The position numbers and the translations under genes were made by a program. The notes under the pieces are model-generated. The model did not search any database. It saw only the letters and a list, made by a program, of their open reading frames with translations, and had not been told where the DNA came from. 64,000 nucleotides of DNA, taken from assembly GCF_056746865.1 (NCBI RefSeq), contig NZ_CM163382.1; one strand, given 5' to 3'. Below are positions 1 through 5,075 of the stretch, in pieces. Every line of letters starts with the position of its first letter. Positions within the stretch are counted from its first letter, which is position 1.

Positions 1-58
1 ATTTAACAGCACCCCAACCACCGGCAGCTCCCTGGTAGGATTCAATTTTTTTCTTCAT
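1..58 (-). CDS. ydeP: 5' end of ydeP-like oxidoreductase gene (first 19 codons; gene continues past window start)
   Basis: Reverse-strand ATG at 58-56 followed by codons reading MKKKIESYQGAAGGWGAV, which I recognise as the YdeP N-terminus; placement downstream of ydeQ fits K-12 synteny. Confidence 0.45.
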   Translation of the reverse strand, partial: MKKKIESYQGAAGGWGAVK

Positions 59-300
59 TTGCTTATCCTGTGTGGAAATGAATTATTAGGATTTGTAATA
101 GCGATGATGCACAGTATATACAAAGGGATTATCGTCAACATGGATATATAAGAGTAGGGGACTACTCTCTTTCTATTTTAATCTATTATCGTTAAACAAA
201 AGATTAAATACGATAAATTAAGCATCATCTCTCATAGTGTTTAAATTAACATATTTTTCAATATAAAAAATAAGACTCTGGCTTCAATTGTGCGCGGATT

Positions 301-318
301 TTCTTACAGATGTAGGAT
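301..318. promoter_or_regulatory. EvgA-box-like inverted repeat TTCTTACA-ga-TGTAGGAT upstream of ydeP
   Basis: Sequence matches the TTCYTACA-N2-TGTARGAA dyad I recall for EvgA targets; lies about 245 bp upstream of the ydeP start on the same side. Confidence 0.35.
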
Positions 319-390
319 AATAGCCTTCACAAAATAATTATCCGCGCAATCTTCGTGAATGGAGCGCATAGACCAATGTCAAAATCACAA

Positions 391-1305
391 TTATTCATAG
401 ATAAAAGTGACACCAATGACTGACTGGACGGTTCCGGCTGCAACCTTGTTTCCTGTTTGTCCATAGGTTGCGCTTAAACCCAGAGGTACTTTGCTTTTAT
501 TTACTGTCCCCAGGGAGACGTTTTCTCCCGTAGCCAGTATTTTTCCATTACGCATCAGAGAGACACCCACTCCCGATGCTTTTGTTGCATCTGGTGCTGT
601 GTTAGCAAACACTTGTCTGGCACTGTCAGTGGTAGCACCCGAAAGATAAAATGAGAGCTTTTGTTCACTTGAGCAATATACGCCAAGGGGTATTTCTGCG
701 CTTCCAGGAAAGTCCGGGAGATTCACGTTGACATTACGACTATCAACGGTGCAGCCGCCTGTTGGCATAACAACACTGTTATTTGAAATAATATTCCACG
801 TAAAATTACGCGGATTTCCACTTCCTAACGTGGCAATTTTATACATATGAATACGGGCAATAACTTCCCCGGCTTTTATGACAACTCCACCGGCCGCACC
901 GACTGGGGTAATATAGAGTTTTAACGGTAATGGCATCGGTGTCTTATCACCAATATCTAATACATTAGTATTTGTCGTCAACGGGAAGGGGTAGGTCACA
1001 TTATTCCAGTACAGCGATCCTTTATATGACTGTAGAGAGCCTGCGAAAGCTGAGCCTTGTACCAGGTTTATATGATCAGTGTCGTACCAGCCGCCGTAAT
1101 CATTCCAGCAACTTATATGCTGAGACAAGTCTACAACCAGATTCTGGCCCGGTTGTATTACAGGGTCGAGATTAACATAAACAGAGGTTGTACCTGCTCC
1201 AATACTTGACCCGCCATCGACATTACAACTGAAGGCAAAAACTTTGCCTGCCATTAATAGAAGATAAATACCGAACAGAAGCTTCATACTTATTGTTTTA
1301 CCCAT
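391..1305 (-). CDS. ydeQ: fimbrial adhesin-like protein, last gene of chaperone-usher operon
   Basis: 304-aa ORF with N-terminal signal peptide ([18 protein letters not shown]), two-domain adhesin length, terminal position after usher and two minor subunits; start may be the internal Met. Confidence 0.8.
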
Positions 1306-2423: not shown

Positions 2424-5075
2424 TTAGCGACAGATTGCTGTCTGCTGGTTCAGTAAGGTACCAGGAGAAACTTCAGGAAGCTTGTACTCGACAATACAGT
2501 TTGAGTTTTTATCTTTGCCCCATGAAACCTGTAATTTCCCTGACTGTGGAAGTCCAGTCAGATAAACCTGACCGTTTTCCGCGACAATGCTGCCATTTTT
2601 ATTCTTTCCGTGAGTGACAATTGCACCGAATGGAACGCTCTTATTACCGTACTTCAACGTCATTAATACTTTCCCGCCGATTTGTGCATTAAATGTTGCT
2701 CTGGCAATAGCACCGTGAGTTGGGATGACAGTGACCACGGTTTCATCCAGTTCAACATTATCTGCAAGGGAATTCGCGTTAAGAGCGACACGATTTTCTC
2801 TATATTCTGTCGCAAATGGTAATATGGCATAGCCACGCCAGTCGGTATGAATACCGGTCTGGTTCTCTATTTTGACATTATCAGCGCCAGGAGCCTTAAC
2901 CAGAACCATTGTGTCGCCCAGCGGCTGTCCAAAGGTGATGCCATCAGCATGAGCAATAATGCCACCACTCATTCCGTAATAAATCTGGCTGCTGTCACCA
3001 CTCCGACTGTAACCGACATTCGTATTACCGTAAGCTCCACGATAATTAAGAGAACTGTAACCACTGGTGCCAGACGATGTATTACCCCCGTGGGTGTTAC
3101 CGACCTGAACACTATAATTCAGGTTATTATCCGGCAGCAGAGTGCCATAAACTCCCGATAGATTGGTCATGCCGCCTTTCAAATCGTTTGACATACTGTA
3201 ACTGGCGTTTGAATTACGAAATGCCGACTGACTGTCTGTACGCATCCAATGACTGAAGGGAACATTAAGCGTAAAAGCAAGTAAATGATCCCGATCGTTT
3301 TGCCATATATTATTGGAATAGCTGTAATTCAGCGAAGTCGTAATATCACCAAACGGCACATTTAATCCAAATGATATTTGCTGGTCGCTGCGTGACGTGT
3401 TCCAGTAACTTTGGCGACTGGCACTAAAAAATGTCGTACCGTAATTTCCAAGCTGCTGAGAGATGCTTATTTGTTCCTGACCACGCTTACTGTAGAACAG
3501 ATTAAAATAATCAATAAATTGTGTCTGCTCGTTGCTGTCTCCGGTAGGAGGCTTGACGGTGTAACCACTCATTCGACTGTAGGCACTGTCGGATAAGTTA
3601 TAAAAACCTTGCGTAGAATAGCGATATCCTGCGACCTGGATATTGGTTCCCGTCTGGTAGAAGGATTTGCTGTAGACGGATTTAATCGATTGCCCGCTGT
3701 GACGGGTGCCATCTGCAAGTGTCGTATTGGCCTGCGTGATATCGAAAGAAAAGGCACCAAAAAGTCCTAAATCTTTACCAATACCAAGGTTGAAGGCCTG
3801 ATAATCTTCTGCAATTTGCATTCCGCCATAAGGTGTCCAGTTTCCTTCCAGTCCATGCATCAAGCTACCTTGTATGAACTTGGGGGAGCTTTGCAGGTTA
3901 TTTCCACTACGATATTCCCCCATGGCAAGCGCATAACGCGTATATCCAGCACGTTGGAGAACCGGAACAGACGAATAAGGAACATATAATGTCTGAATAC
4001 TGCCGTCTGCCTCTTTTATGGTTACTTGCAGATCACCACCATTGGCCGCAGAGTTGATATCATCAATAGTAAAAGGGCCGGGTGGGACAGTAGTCTGATA
4101 AACATCGTATCCATTCTGTTTTACACTCACTTGTGCGGTGCCGCGGGCAATACCATGAATCACCGGAGCGAAACCATGTTGGCTATCGGGCAACATCGCT
4201 TCTGTTGAATTTATTTTGAGGCCACGAAAGTTCACACTATCAAAAATATCGCCATCGGTATAACTATCACCTACCGTTAAGCGTGAGCGTAAGGGAATAA
4301 TGTCACGTTCAGCCGACGTATTGATATGCTGCCATTTATTGCTGTCAGATGAATTGCTACTCCCACTGTTATAACTCCACGTTGAGTTATCGCGCAGTCG
4401 CCAACTACCAATGTTGATGCCACTCTGTAAATTCAAATATGCATAGTTGGATTTTCCTGCATTATGGTTACTACGATTATTAATAGAATTACCATTAAAA
4501 CTATAGTTTAGAAGCCCAGCATTTATTCCTTCTTCCCACAGATCAGGAGAAACATAGCCGCGAGCCATTCTGCCAACATAAATTTGCGGAACGGAGAGTG
4601 ACAGATGTTGCTGACCAACATCAAACTCAGTTGATGCGTCGGCCAAACGATCCTGAAGTGGTGTGCATGCGCTGTTGTCCGGCACATGTTTTTCTGCCGA
4701 ATGTTCTTTATTGTCTAATAACGCTGATTTTTTTATGCCAAGACTGACTAGAAGATCTGTACTCAGGCATGGGATGAGATCTGCGTTATTATCATCTGCA
4801 ATAAAAGTAATATCCCGACTAGTAATAAATTCGTCGTTCAAATAAATGTCGACCCGATATGTACCAGGTGGTGCCTCGCGTCCCTTAGTAAAGGCGGATA
4901 AATCGACAGATTCAGCAAGATCATTGCTTAAAAACCGTGGATTAAAATAATACTCTGCGTCAACGGGAAATACCGCAGTTGCTAAGCCAAGGGCAATGGT
5001 AAGCCGTGCAAAGCGAGGCAGTAGTAACACCTGATGCATACGATATGCCTTAAATGCGGCACGAAAGGCTGTCAT
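2424..5075 (-). CDS. ydeT: fimbrial outer-membrane usher (FimD/PapC family), apparently full length
   Basis: 883-aa ORF, Asn/Ser/Tyr/Gly-rich beta-barrel composition and usher length; follows chaperone gene; true start may be internal Met 13. Confidence 0.85.
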   Translation of the reverse strand: MTAFRAAFKAYRMHQVLLLPRFARLTIALGLATAVFPVDAEYYFNPRFLSNDLAESVDLSAFTKGREAPPGTYRVDIYLNDEFITSRDITFIADDNNADLIPCLSTDLLVSLGIKKSALLDNKEHSAEKHVPDNSACTPLQDRLADASTEFDVGQQHLSLSVPQIYVGRMARGYVSPDLWEEGINAGLLNYSFNGNSINNRSNHNAGKSNYAYLNLQSGINIGSWRLRDNSTWSYNSGSSNSSDSNKWQHINTSAERDIIPLRSRLTVGDSYTDGDIFDSVNFRGLKINSTEAMLPDSQHGFAPVIHGIARGTAQVSVKQNGYDVYQTTVPPGPFTIDDINSAANGGDLQVTIKEADGSIQTLYVPYSSVPVLQRAGYTRYALAMGEYRSGNNLQSSPKFIQGSLMHGLEGNWTPYGGMQIAEDYQAFNLGIGKDLGLFGAFSFDITQANTTLADGTRHSGQSIKSVYSKSFYQTGTNIQVAGYRYSTQGFYNLSDSAYSRMSGYTVKPPTGDSNEQTQFIDYFNLFYSKRGQEQISISQQLGNYGTTFFSASRQSYWNTSRSDQQISFGLNVPFGDITTSLNYSYSNNIWQNDRDHLLAFTLNVPFSHWMRTDSQSAFRNSNASYSMSNDLKGGMTNLSGVYGTLLPDNNLNYSVQVGNTHGGNTSSGTSGYSSLNYRGAYGNTNVGYSRSGDSSQIYYGMSGGIIAHADGITFGQPLGDTMVLVKAPGADNVKIENQTGIHTDWRGYAILPFATEYRENRVALNANSLADNVELDETVVTVIPTHGAIARATFNAQIGGKVLMTLKYGNKSVPFGAIVTHGKNKNGSIVAENGQVYLTGLPQSGKLQVSWGKDKNSNCIVEYKLPEVSPGTLLNQQTAICR

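What the first reader, a model, noticed from the sequence alone, without database searches (positions are those of the whole stretch)
301..318. EvgA-box-like dyad far upstream of ydeP
TTCTTACA-ga-TGTAGGAT resembles the inverted-repeat EvgA recognition sequence. Its distance from the ydeP start (about 245 bp) implies a long leader or a distal activator site.
Basis: partly seen in the sequence, partly recalled or inferred. Interest (0 to 1): 0.3.

Follow-up and report, generated by a model that had tools for sequence, protein, structure and literature searches.

The report
Known EvgA box of ydeP promoter
This 18-bp inverted repeat is the already-described docking site through which the acid-sensing regulator EvgA switches on the E. 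coli acid-resistance gene ydeP; it lies about 75 bp upstream of the transcription start, and most of the gap to the start codon is a 177-nt untranslated leader, so the finding is real but ordinary.

Summary
The dyad TTCTTACAGATGTAGGAT is at window 301-318, 243 bp upstream of the ydeP ATG (minus strand, A at 58). It has one mismatch to TTCYTACA-N2-TGTARGAA. No such match occurred in 100 shuffles of the window.

A weight matrix built only from the dyads upstream of other EvgA targets in K-12 (safA, emrK/evgA, frc, yfdX x2, yegR) ranks it first in 64 kb. It scores 23.5 bits; the next site scores 11.6, and the best of 60 simulated windows 17.6.

The window is an E. coli chromosome, identical over the tested stretches to strain 118UI. 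That strain encodes an EvgA 100% identical to K-12 EvgA. The site is orthologous to the K-12 ydeP site. Across 7 strains and one divergent Escherichia lineage, the variable positions are the 2-nt spacer and two half-site positions.

Held papers say EvgA regulates ydeP directly and binds its promoter. One paper starts the ydeP leader at ATGAGAG, which is window 235. That puts the box at -83..-66 (centre -74.5), upstream of an extended -10 (TGtTAATTT, 243-251) with no good -35. safA has the same box-to-(-10) spacing.

Verdict: observation confirmed, and the "long leader" reading is right. This is an already known regulatory site. Side observations are a structured leader and conserved elements between the box and the -35 region.

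The parts
301..318 (-). EvgA box. An 18-bp inverted repeat that reads ATCCTACA-tc-TGTAAGAA on the ydeP strand. It spans -83 to -66 relative to the TSS, centre -74.5.
   Evidence: Sequence. One mismatch to the consensus, 0/100 shuffles. Leave-one-out weight matrix score 23.45 bits, rank 1 in 64 kb. Orthologous to the K-12 dyad, with variation in the spacer and in two half-site positions.
243..251 (-). Extended -10 element TGtTAATTT: TG at 251-250, hexamer TAATTT at 248-243 (-13..-8). There is no good -35 hexamer 17 bp upstream (ATTTTT, 271-266).
   Evidence: Sequence. The safA promoter has TGtTATATT at the identical offset from its box, p=50-58. The divergent lineage L012 keeps TGcTAATTT. Position agrees with the TSS at 235.
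235..235 (-). Transcription start used in the literature for K-12 ydeP: the A of ATGAGAGATGATGC.
   Evidence: PMC11210196 gives the ydeP leader as -178..+10 from the start codon. Its T7 template primer reads GGG-ATGAGAGATGATGCTTAACTTATCG. Mapped onto the window sequence. The origin of that TSS was not traceable in the held text.
59..235 (-). 177-nt 5' untranslated leader of ydeP, one nt shorter than in K-12. Predicted helices: 222-232 with 100-110; hairpin 177-208; hairpin 150-169; AUCCU (88-92) with AGGAU (65-69), which contains the Shine-Dalgarno AGGA at 66-69.
   Evidence: MFE -35.5 kcal/mol, z = -3.0, 0/200 shuffles fold as well. Consensus fold of 8 Escherichia leaders has 42 pairs and one compensatory AU->CG change. 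No Rfam family at E<=1.
1..58 (-). 5' end of the ydeP coding sequence (MKKKIESYQGAAGGWGAVK...); the gene runs off the window.
   Evidence: Reverse-strand sequence. RefSeq annotation of identical or orthologous DNA as ydeP.
271..277 (-). AGTCTTA. Its TCTTA core lies at -41..-37. This shared element sits 24-30 nt downstream of the box and resembles an EvgA half-site core (TCYTA).
   Evidence: Same offset in safA (AGTCCTA), emrK (AGTCCTC) and yegR (ATCCTAT). TCY at p=26-28 in all six target promoters. Invariant in 7 strains and L012. Function is inferred only.
282..287 (-). TTGAAG, shared with safA as cTGAAG at the same offset. The scanner called it a -35 paired with TATATT at 265-260. That pairing is not supported.
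   Evidence: Scanner hit. safA has no -10 at the corresponding place, and the literature TSS is 18 nt further downstream.
291..348 (.). Perfect 9-bp inverted repeat TGCGCGGAT (291-299) / ATCCGCGCA (340-348) that brackets the EvgA box. Role unknown.
   Evidence: the repeat finder. Invariant in 7 E. coli strains. In L012 one arm is kept, the other has C->T, and 12 bp are inserted between arm and box.

Best explanation
Window 301-318 is the EvgA operator of the ydeP promoter.

Shown by sequence:
- It is a near-consensus 18-bp inverted repeat, the same one found upstream of the other EvgA targets.
- It is conserved across E. coli, with variation concentrated in the 2-nt spacer.
- It lies at a fixed distance upstream of an extended -10 element (TGnTAATTT) that has no usable -35.

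Taken from the literature:
- EvgA directly regulates ydeP and binds its promoter.
- The ydeP promoter is very weak at neutral pH and strongly induced at pH 5.5 through EvgS/EvgA.
- The transcript starts 178 nt (K-12) upstream of the ATG.

Inferred mechanism: at mildly acidic pH, EvgS phosphorylates EvgA. A head-to-head EvgA dimer (receiver domain plus LuxR/GerE-type helix-turn-helix) then occupies the two half-sites, centred at about -74.5. From there it recruits or stabilises sigma-70 RNA polymerase at the -35-less promoter. It may act through the alpha C-terminal domain, through further weakly bound EvgA between the box and the -35 region, or by displacing H-NS from this AT-rich region.

Transcription starts at window 235 and yields a 177-nt leader before the ydeP ATG at 58. 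The large distance to the start codon is therefore mostly leader, not activation at a distance.
For: - Motif match and significance.
- The same dyad, with 0-3 mismatches, lies upstream of K-12 ydeP, safA, emrK/evgA, frc, yfdX (two copies) and yegR. A review lists these genes, plus gadE, as having EvgA-bound promoters (PMC8147483).
[quoted passage not shown] - Across 7 E. coli strains, 15 of 16 half-site positions are invariant, while both spacer positions vary (TC/CC/CT).
- A divergent Escherichia lineage keeps the box at the same distance, together with the extended -10 and the TSS region. Identity to the window is 88.9% in the box and 84.6% from box to TSS, against 70.8% upstream.
- An 89-nt core is present in 5,311 of 5,426 complete E. 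coli genomes.
- The leader start is at ATGAGAG, with a matching extended -10 at the same box offset in ydeP and safA.
- Strain 118UI, which is identical to the window over the tested stretches, has intact evgA and evgS. Its EvgA is 100% identical to K-12 EvgA.
- EvgA contains Response_reg and GerE domains.
- H-NS binds the ydeP promoter fragment in vitro (PMC2984483).
Against: - No binding or mutagenesis data for this exact allele exist in what I could read.
- The primary papers are not in the held library: Masuda & Church 2002/2003, Ma et al. 2004, Itou et al. 2009. The exact published footprint coordinates therefore could not be compared.
- The TSS comes from how one paper designed its leader probe, not from a primary mapping that I read.
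- With that TSS the -10 hexamer sits at -13..-8, one position off the textbook spacing.
- A centre at -74.5 is not one of the canonical class I positions (-61.5, -71.5, -82.5).
- How EvgA contacts RNA polymerase is unknown.
- gadE is listed as EvgA-bound, yet its K-12 upstream region shows no dyad at <=4 mismatches. EvgA can evidently act without a good box, so the motif is not the whole story.
Confidence: 0.92

Rival explanations
1. BvgA-like array. The dyad is only the high-affinity primary site. Further EvgA~P dimers bind weaker sequences downstream at spacings of about 21-22 bp until the last one abuts or overlaps the -35 region, as BvgA does at Pfha and Pptx. This refines the best explanation rather than replacing it.
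For: - EvgA/EvgS is the E. coli counterpart of BvgA/BvgS (PMC8174306).
- BvgA~P binds as head-to-head dimers spaced 22 bp apart. Its strong primary site is an inverted heptad, and the most proximal dimer abuts the -35 region (PMC7250471).
- The 40 bp between the box and the -35 region is unusually conserved and shared between promoters: TGAAGC at p=15-20 in ydeP and safA, and a TCYTA-type half-site core at p=26-30 in ydeP, safA and yegR (emrK has TCCTC).
- The 18-mer exactly 22 bp downstream of the box (CGCGCACAATTGAAGCCA) matches 9/16 consensus positions.
Against: - The +22 candidate scores -1.2 bits on the weight matrix, which is indistinguishable from background.
- Other promoters show no consistent secondary match at +21/+22: frc is at +20, emrK has none, and yfdX has its second strong box at 38 bp.
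- The ydeP/safA and frc/yfdX similarity may simply reflect duplicated promoter modules.
Confidence: 0.25
2. Remote activator or anti-silencer site. The real promoter would lie close to the ATG with a short leader, and EvgA bound 245 bp away would act at a distance, for example only by breaking an H-NS filament.
For: - The region is AT-rich, and H-NS binds the ydeP promoter fragment preferentially in vitro (PMC2984483).
- frc also has its box 260 bp from its ATG.
Against: - The leader used for K-12 is 178 nt and starts at ATGAGAG.
- A conserved extended -10 sits at the right place for that TSS, at the same box offset as in safA.
- In the divergent lineage the box-to-TSS block is the best-conserved part of the intergenic region.
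- H-NS displacement may still contribute, but from a conventional upstream position.
Confidence: 0.05
3. Site for another regulator, or an RNA element. The dyad could bind a different NarL/FixJ-type protein such as RcsB or GadE. Alternatively it could act as a hairpin in the 3' untranslated end of the upstream ydeQ fimbrial transcript, enclosed by the 9-bp stem 291-299/340-348.
For: - The dyad lies 73 bp downstream of the ydeQ stop codon on the same strand, inside a perfect 9-bp inverted repeat.
- The half-site core TCYTA/TAAGA resembles cores used by related LuxR-type regulators (my own knowledge, not tested here).
Against: - There is no T-run after either stem and no terminator call on the minus strand.
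- The divergent lineage L012 has no ydeQ upstream (a hipA-like ORF instead, by its translation) yet keeps the dyad at the same distance from ydeP.
- The same dyad occurs upstream of five other EvgA-regulated transcription units that share no upstream gene.
- As RNA, the dyad would have only a 2-nt loop and two mismatches.
Confidence: 0.03
4. Chance palindrome with no function.
For: At <=3 mismatches the consensus is expected 0.85 times per 64 kb by chance.
Against: - The actual match has 1 mismatch, with 0/100 shuffles.
- Its 23.45 bits compare with a simulated maximum of 17.59.
- It is conserved, with variation concentrated in the spacer.
- It lies upstream of a gene known to be EvgA-activated.
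Confidence: 0.01

Closest known systems
EvgA boxes of the other E. coli K-12 EvgA targets (safA-ydeO, emrKY/evgAS, frc, yfdX, yegR)
   Same: - The same 18-bp inverted repeat, TTCYTACA-N2-TGTARGAA, with 0-3 mismatches.
- All lie 106-260 bp upstream of the start codon.
- ydeP and safA share the box-to-(-10) distance, the extended -10, TGAAGC and AGTCYTA.
- Reviews list all of these promoters as EvgA-bound.
   Different: - This strain's allele (spacer TC on the ydeP strand; T at position 2 of the distal half) has 1 mismatch to the consensus, against 2 in K-12. Only 195 of about 5,320 matching records carry it exactly over 89 nt.
- yfdX has two boxes 38 bp apart, whereas ydeP has one.
- frc has a perfect palindrome.
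K-12 ydeP EvgA site (MG1655 1,586,730-1,586,747; AGCCTACAccTGTAAGAA on the ydeP strand)
   Same: It is the orthologous position in a 97%-identical intergenic region, with the same flanks, -10 and TSS.
   Different: There are two substitutions in the 18-mer, one in the spacer and one at position 2 of the distal half-site. A 1-nt deletion in the leader makes it 177 nt instead of 178.
BvgA primary binding site of Bordetella Pfha (inverted heptad)
   Same: The regulator is of the homologous type: EvgA/EvgS is described as the counterpart of BvgA/BvgS. It is a head-to-head dimer on an inverted repeat upstream of a weak core promoter (PMC7250471).
   Different: BvgA promoters use arrays of dimers at 22-bp spacing that reach the -35 region. 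For ydeP only one strong site is detectable, and the candidate secondary site is at background level.
NarL/FixJ-family response-regulator operators in general (for example NarL 7-2-7 sites)
   Same: EvgA has Response_reg plus GerE (LuxR-type HTH) domains. Its closest solved relatives other than EvgA itself are NarL, VraR, DesR, DevR and RcsB. The site is a dimeric inverted repeat with a 2-bp spacer.
   Different: The half-site sequence is different (TTCYTACA), and the signal is different (mild acid, sensed by the hybrid kinase EvgS).

Membership tests
EvgA box (operator of the EvgS/EvgA regulon) | 18-bp inverted repeat matching TTCYTACA-N2-TGTARGAA. The consensus is recalled from Masuda & Church 2003 and re-derived here from other targets. 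| tested here: met
   1 mismatch. 23.45 bits on a matrix built from six other K-12 sites with ydeP excluded; rank 1 of about 64,000 positions.
EvgA box (operator of the EvgS/EvgA regulon) | Located upstream of, and oriented towards, a transcription unit that EvgA activates. | tested here: met
   It is upstream of ydeP, per the annotation of identical or orthologous DNA. ydeP is directly EvgA-regulated and acid-induced.
EvgA box (operator of the EvgS/EvgA regulon) | Orthologous to the site in the reference strain where regulation was studied. | tested here: met
   Aligns column for column with the K-12 MG1655 dyad.
EvgA box (operator of the EvgS/EvgA regulon) | Conservation pattern of a dimer site: half-sites constrained, spacer free. 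| tested here: met
   In 7 strains, 15/16 half-site positions are invariant and both spacer positions vary. The divergent lineage changes one more half-site base, to the variant also seen at emrK (TACG). The sample is small.
EvgA box (operator of the EvgS/EvgA regulon) | The cognate regulator EvgA and kinase EvgS are encoded in the same genome. | tested here: met
   Strain 118UI matches the window 100% over 480 nt. It has evgA (204 aa, 100% identical to K-12) and a full-length evgS. That the window derives from this strain or a near-identical one is an inference.
EvgA box (operator of the EvgS/EvgA regulon) | Fixed, activator-compatible position relative to the core promoter. | tested here: met
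   The centre is at -74.5 from the TSS used in PMC11210196. safA has its extended -10 at the identical offset. emrK, frc and yfdX have -10-like hexamers within 1-2 nt of that offset.
EvgA box (operator of the EvgS/EvgA regulon) | Physical binding of (phospho-)EvgA to this DNA, and loss of activation when the dyad is mutated. | not testable with these tools
   Secondary literature says EvgA binds the ydeP promoter. The primary footprinting paper (Itou et al. 2009) is not held (searches show related primary papers also missing).
BvgA-type multi-dimer activator array | Additional lower-affinity dimer sites at about 22-bp spacing, reaching the -35 region. | tested here: inconclusive
   The +22 candidate matches 9/16 but scores -1.2 bits. 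There is no consistent pattern across the six promoters. However, the interval is conserved and shared between promoters.

The most novel reading that the evidence does not exclude
The 18-bp box may not be the whole cis-regulatory unit. Two further layers are not excluded.

(a) EvgA targets share an uncharacterised proximal element, with TCY fixed 26-28 nt after the box at about -40..-38. In ydeP and safA there is also TGAAGC. This could be a second, low-affinity EvgA contact or an RNA-polymerase contact, giving a BvgA-like architecture.

(b) The conserved 177-nt ydeP leader folds into a structure that pairs the Shine-Dalgarno sequence (AGGAU, 65-69) with an upstream AUCCU (88-92). It could add post-transcriptional control to ydeP. 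No such control is described in the papers I could read, apart from a negative CsrA-binding result.
Probability: 0.15. Interest if true: 0.3.

Novelty: already known. Interest (0 to 1): 0.07.

Why it matters
The dyad is the switch that couples mild-acid sensing by EvgS/EvgA to expression of YdeP, which is one of the effectors sufficient for extreme-acid survival of growing E. coli (PMC4283999). The regulation is already established, so confirming the site in this strain adds only a correct annotation: operator, core promoter, TSS and leader placed in window coordinates. It also records that this strain carries a minority allele slightly closer to consensus than K-12's. The modest added value is comparative: a common box-to-promoter geometry across EvgA targets and a conserved, apparently structured leader.

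Tried and rejected
- **Primary papers.** I tried to read Masuda & Church 2002 (PMC151933), Ma et al. 2004 (PMC523220), Eguchi et al. 2007 (PMC2141842) and Johnson et al. 2011 (PMC3133336). None is held, so published footprint coordinates could not be compared.
- **Text searches.** Searches for 'EvgA box', 'EvgA binding site' and the motif strings returned nothing useful. A search for genome-wide EvgA binding data (ChIP-exo, ChIP-seq, DAP-seq, SELEX) found none.
- **Scanner promoter.** The scan proposed TTGAAG (287-282) / TATATT (265-260). I rejected it as the acid-induced promoter. safA lacks the corresponding -10, and the literature TSS is 18 nt further downstream, behind a conserved extended -10.
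- **Cross-species scan.** One genome-contig scan with CCTACANNTGTAAGAAANNCCGC found only E. coli-type DNA and three unrelated chance hits. The E. coli-type hits were one divergent Escherichia genome and two contigs binned as other organisms that are clearly E. coli sequence. No other genus was recovered, so the scan says little about origin beyond Escherichia.
- **Secondary EvgA sites at BvgA-like spacing.** Only background-level matches.
- **Rfam search of window 1-500.** No family.
- **Terminator reading.** The hairpin at 151-168 is called on the + strand, antisense to ydeP. On the ydeP strand it is not followed by a T-run, so I treat it as a leader hairpin.

Full report
**What is in the sequence**

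Window 301-318 reads TTCTTACAGATGTAGGAT on the + strand and ATCCTACA-tc-TGTAAGAA on the minus strand. The first 58 bases of the window, read on the minus strand, begin an ORF: ATG at 58-56, then MKKKIESYQGAAGGWGAVK. The next gene upstream on the same strand is a 304-aa ORF at 391-1305.

Megablast of window 1-480 against complete E. coli genomes gives a 100% match to strain 118UI. Matches of 95-99% occur in about 5,200 other genomes, and RefSeq annotates the two genes as ydeP and ydeQ. The window is therefore an E. coli chromosome that starts inside ydeP. The dyad lies in the 332-bp ydeQ-ydeP intergenic region, 243 bp (near edge) from the ydeP ATG.

**Is it more than chance?**

The dyad has one mismatch to TTCYTACANNTGTARGAA. 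It is the only hit in 64 kb even at three mismatches. At one mismatch or fewer, none of 100 dinucleotide-preserving shuffles produced a hit.

To avoid relying on a remembered consensus, I fetched the K-12 MG1655 regions that hold the classical EvgA targets. The same dyad is upstream of each:

| Target | Dyad (+ strand of the fetched K-12 locus, as printed) | Mismatches |
|---|---|---|
| ydeP | TTCTTACAGGTGTAGGCT | 2 |
| safA | TTCTTACAGCTGTAGGCA | 1 |
| emrK/evgA intergenic | TTCTTACGCCTGTAGGAT | 2 |
| frc | TTCTTACAACTGTAAGAA | 0 |
| yfdX, first copy | GTCTTACAATTGTAGGAA | 1 |
| yfdX, second copy | ATCTTACAGTTGTAGTTA | 3 |
| yegR | TTCCTACATAAGTAGGAA | 1 |

A palindromised weight matrix built from the six non-ydeP sites scores window 301-318 at 23.45 bits, the best position in the window. 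The next best scores 11.59. The maximum over 60 simulated 64-kb sequences was 17.59. No second candidate exists in the ydeQ-ydeP intergenic region.

**Literature**

The primary papers that defined the motif and footprinted EvgA on ydeP are not in the held library. From my own knowledge these are Masuda & Church 2003 and Itou et al. 2009. What follows rests on held secondary statements.

[quoted passage not shown] GadE, GadW, and GadX, or ... RpoS' (PMC7174508).
[quoted passage not shown] Apart from gadE, that last list matches the genes where I found the dyad independently (I also found one in the emrK/evgA intergenic region).

**Where the promoter is**

[quoted passage not shown] Its T7 template primer reads GGG-ATGAGAGATGATGCTTAACTTATCG (Table S3). 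ATGAGAG begins at window 235. This strain has a 1-nt deletion in the leader relative to K-12, so its leader is 177 nt.

With +1 at 235 the box spans -83 to -66, centre -74.5. Immediately upstream of the TSS is an extended -10, TG-t-TAATTT (251-243). Seventeen bp further up there is only ATTTTT, which is no real -35. That fits a promoter that is silent without its activator.

I counted from the last base of the box (p=1 is the first base after it). The extended -10 then occupies p=50-58 in both ydeP (TGtTAATTT) and safA (TGtTATATT). emrK, frc and the promoter-proximal yfdX box have -10-like hexamers within one or two bases of that offset. A box centre near -74 therefore looks like the common geometry of these promoters.

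The promoter scanner proposed TTGAAG/TATATT. That pairing has no counterpart in safA and would put the TSS 18 nt upstream of the one in use, so I reject it.

**Conservation**

In seven E. coli strains spanning K-12, O157:H7, B2 (Nissle) and environmental isolates, the intergenic region is 97% identical. Within the 18-mer, only the two spacer bases (TC, CC, CT) and position 2 of the distal half-site (T or G) vary. The other 15 half-site positions are invariant.

An 89-nt core around the box is present in 5,311 of 5,426 complete genomes. The window's exact allele occurs in 195 records.

A DNA-pattern scan of one genome per species recovered one more divergent Escherichia genome, L012. Its YdeP is 96% identical to K-12. 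By its translation, a hipA-like ORF sits upstream in place of ydeQ. There the intergenic region has diverged much more. Identity to the window is 70.8% upstream of the box, with 23 gapped columns. It is 88.9% in the box, 84.6% from box to TSS and 76.7% in the middle of the leader.

L012 nevertheless retains ATCCTACGccTGTAAGAA at the same distance from the ATG. It also retains TTGAAG, AGAGTCTTATTTT, TGcTAATTT and TTTAAACAYTATGAGAGATGATGC.

**The regulator**

The 118UI genome encodes emrKY, evgA, evgS, yfdE-frc and yfdX in the K-12 arrangement, with the same boxes. Its EvgA is 100% identical to K-12 EvgA. EvgA has a receiver domain and a GerE/LuxR-type HTH domain. Full-length EvgA structures exist (5f64, 8zwn), and the nearest other solved relatives are NarL, VraR, DesR, DevR and RcsB. 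A dimer of such a protein on an inverted repeat with a 2-bp spacer is the expected binding mode; this step is inferred.

**Mechanism, and what is shown versus inferred**

Shown by sequence:
- a near-consensus, conserved dyad at a fixed distance upstream of a -35-less extended -10 promoter;
- the same module at safA.

Taken from the literature:
- direct EvgA dependence;
- acid induction through EvgS;
- the leader start;
- H-NS binding to the promoter fragment in vitro (PMC2984483).

Inferred: phospho-EvgA binds as a dimer at -74.5 and recruits or stabilises sigma-70 RNA polymerase. This could work through alpha-CTD contacts, through further weakly bound EvgA, or through relief of H-NS silencing.

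I tested the BvgA-style alternative, in which a primary site is followed by weaker dimers every 22 bp until the -35 region (PMC7250471). The 18-mer 22 bp downstream matches 9/16 consensus positions but scores -1.2 bits, and other promoters show no consistent pattern. The result is inconclusive. However, the interval between the box and the -35 region is conserved and shared between promoters (see the side observations below).

**Rivals**

- *Chance* is excluded by the statistics and the conservation.
- *An RNA hairpin in the ydeQ 3' end* is unlikely. The dyad persists in L012, where ydeQ is absent. It also recurs upstream of five unrelated transcription units, and no terminator features follow it.
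- *A remote-acting site with a short leader* conflicts with the leader used experimentally and with the conserved -10 and TSS block.

**Comparison with what is known, and novelty**

This is the EvgA operator of ydeP, a member of the EvgA-box family in the strict sense. All sequence-testable defining features are met. Only physical binding is untestable here. It works like other NarL/FixJ-type response-regulator operators and may resemble BvgA primary sites.

Nothing about the site is new. The strain allele differs from K-12 by one spacer base and one outer half-site base, and is slightly closer to consensus. Interest is low.

**Side observations**

1. *Structured leader.* The 177-nt leader folds better than all of 200 shuffles (z = -3.0). 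The consensus fold of eight Escherichia leaders has four helices. These include one that pairs the Shine-Dalgarno AGGAU with an upstream AUCCU, and a hairpin (177-208) with one compensatory AU->CG change in B2 strains. No Rfam family matches. CsrA does not bind this leader (PMC11210196).
2. *Shared proximal element.* TCY lies at p=26-28 after the box in all six target promoters. ydeP/safA and frc/yfdX look like two pairs of duplicated promoter modules. ydeP and yegR share TTTAAACACTA(T)GAGAG around the TSS.
3. *Bracketing repeat.* A perfect 9-bp inverted repeat brackets the box.
4. *gadE and mdtE.* The K-12 gadE upstream region has no dyad at <=4 mismatches, whereas a 2-mismatch dyad sits inside mdtE.

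Noticed in passing
window 59-235 (minus strand): The 177-nt ydeP 5' leader is predicted to be structured (MFE -35.5 kcal/mol, z = -3.0, 0/200 shuffles). It has a long-range helix (222-232 with 100-110), hairpins at 177-208 and 150-169, and an AUCCU (88-92) / AGGAU (65-69) pairing that covers the Shine-Dalgarno sequence. Eight Escherichia leaders show one compensatory AU->CG change, in hairpin 177-208 of B2 strains. No Rfam family matches.
   Followed up: partly
window 262-300 (minus strand); K-12 loci L002, L003, L005: EvgA-target promoters share more than the 18-bp box. TCY sits 26-28 nt after the box in all six promoters. ydeP and safA share TGAAGC, AGTCYTA and an extended -10 at identical offsets. 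frc and yfdX share CTCTCTGATT at the same offset. ydeP and yegR share TTTAAACACTA(T)GAGAG near the TSS. This suggests duplicated promoter modules, a second protein contact near -40, or both.
   Followed up: partly
window 291-299 and 340-348: A perfect 9-bp GC-rich inverted repeat (TGCGCGGAT / ATCCGCGCA) brackets the EvgA box with 40 nt between the arms. It is invariant in 7 E. coli strains. In the divergent lineage one arm has C->T and 12 bp are inserted. Its function is unknown, and a rough chance expectation for such a repeat in this region is about 0.1.
   Followed up: partly
L004 5887-5904 (K-12 MG1655 3,659,886-3,659,903, inside mdtE); L004 3569-4366 (hdeD-gadE intergenic): The gadE upstream region has no EvgA dyad at <=4 mismatches, although reviews list gadE as EvgA-bound. 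A 2-mismatch dyad, TTCTTACGCATGAAAGAA, lies about 650 nt inside the mdtE coding sequence of the acid fitness island.
   Followed up: no
L013 (contig labelled Candidatus Nanosynbacter MAG) and L016 (uncultured bacterium UMGS1713): In contigs binned as non-Escherichia organisms, the promoter contexts printed around the pattern matches are E. coli-type. L013 has both the ydeP and safA promoter boxes, 2,659 bp apart as in K-12. L016 has the safA promoter context. This points to contamination or mis-binning of those MAGs.
   Followed up: no
L012 (NZ_JAATUR010000028.1, labelled E. coli SCPM-O-B-8794): A divergent Escherichia lineage lacks the ydeQRST fimbrial genes upstream of ydeP; by its translation, a hipA-like ORF lies nearby instead. 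Its SafA is diverged (63 aa), and the upstream context of its safA promoter differs, but it keeps both EvgA boxes.
   Followed up: partly
window 2424-5075 (minus strand): This strain has an intact 883-aa ORF where K-12-lineage records annotate only fragments. MC1061 has a truncated usher pseudogene (with a truncated fimbrial-protein pseudogene beside it), and MG1655 annotates ydeT as a 'fimbrial usher domain-containing protein'. The ydeQRST fimbrial operon may therefore be complete here.
   Followed up: no
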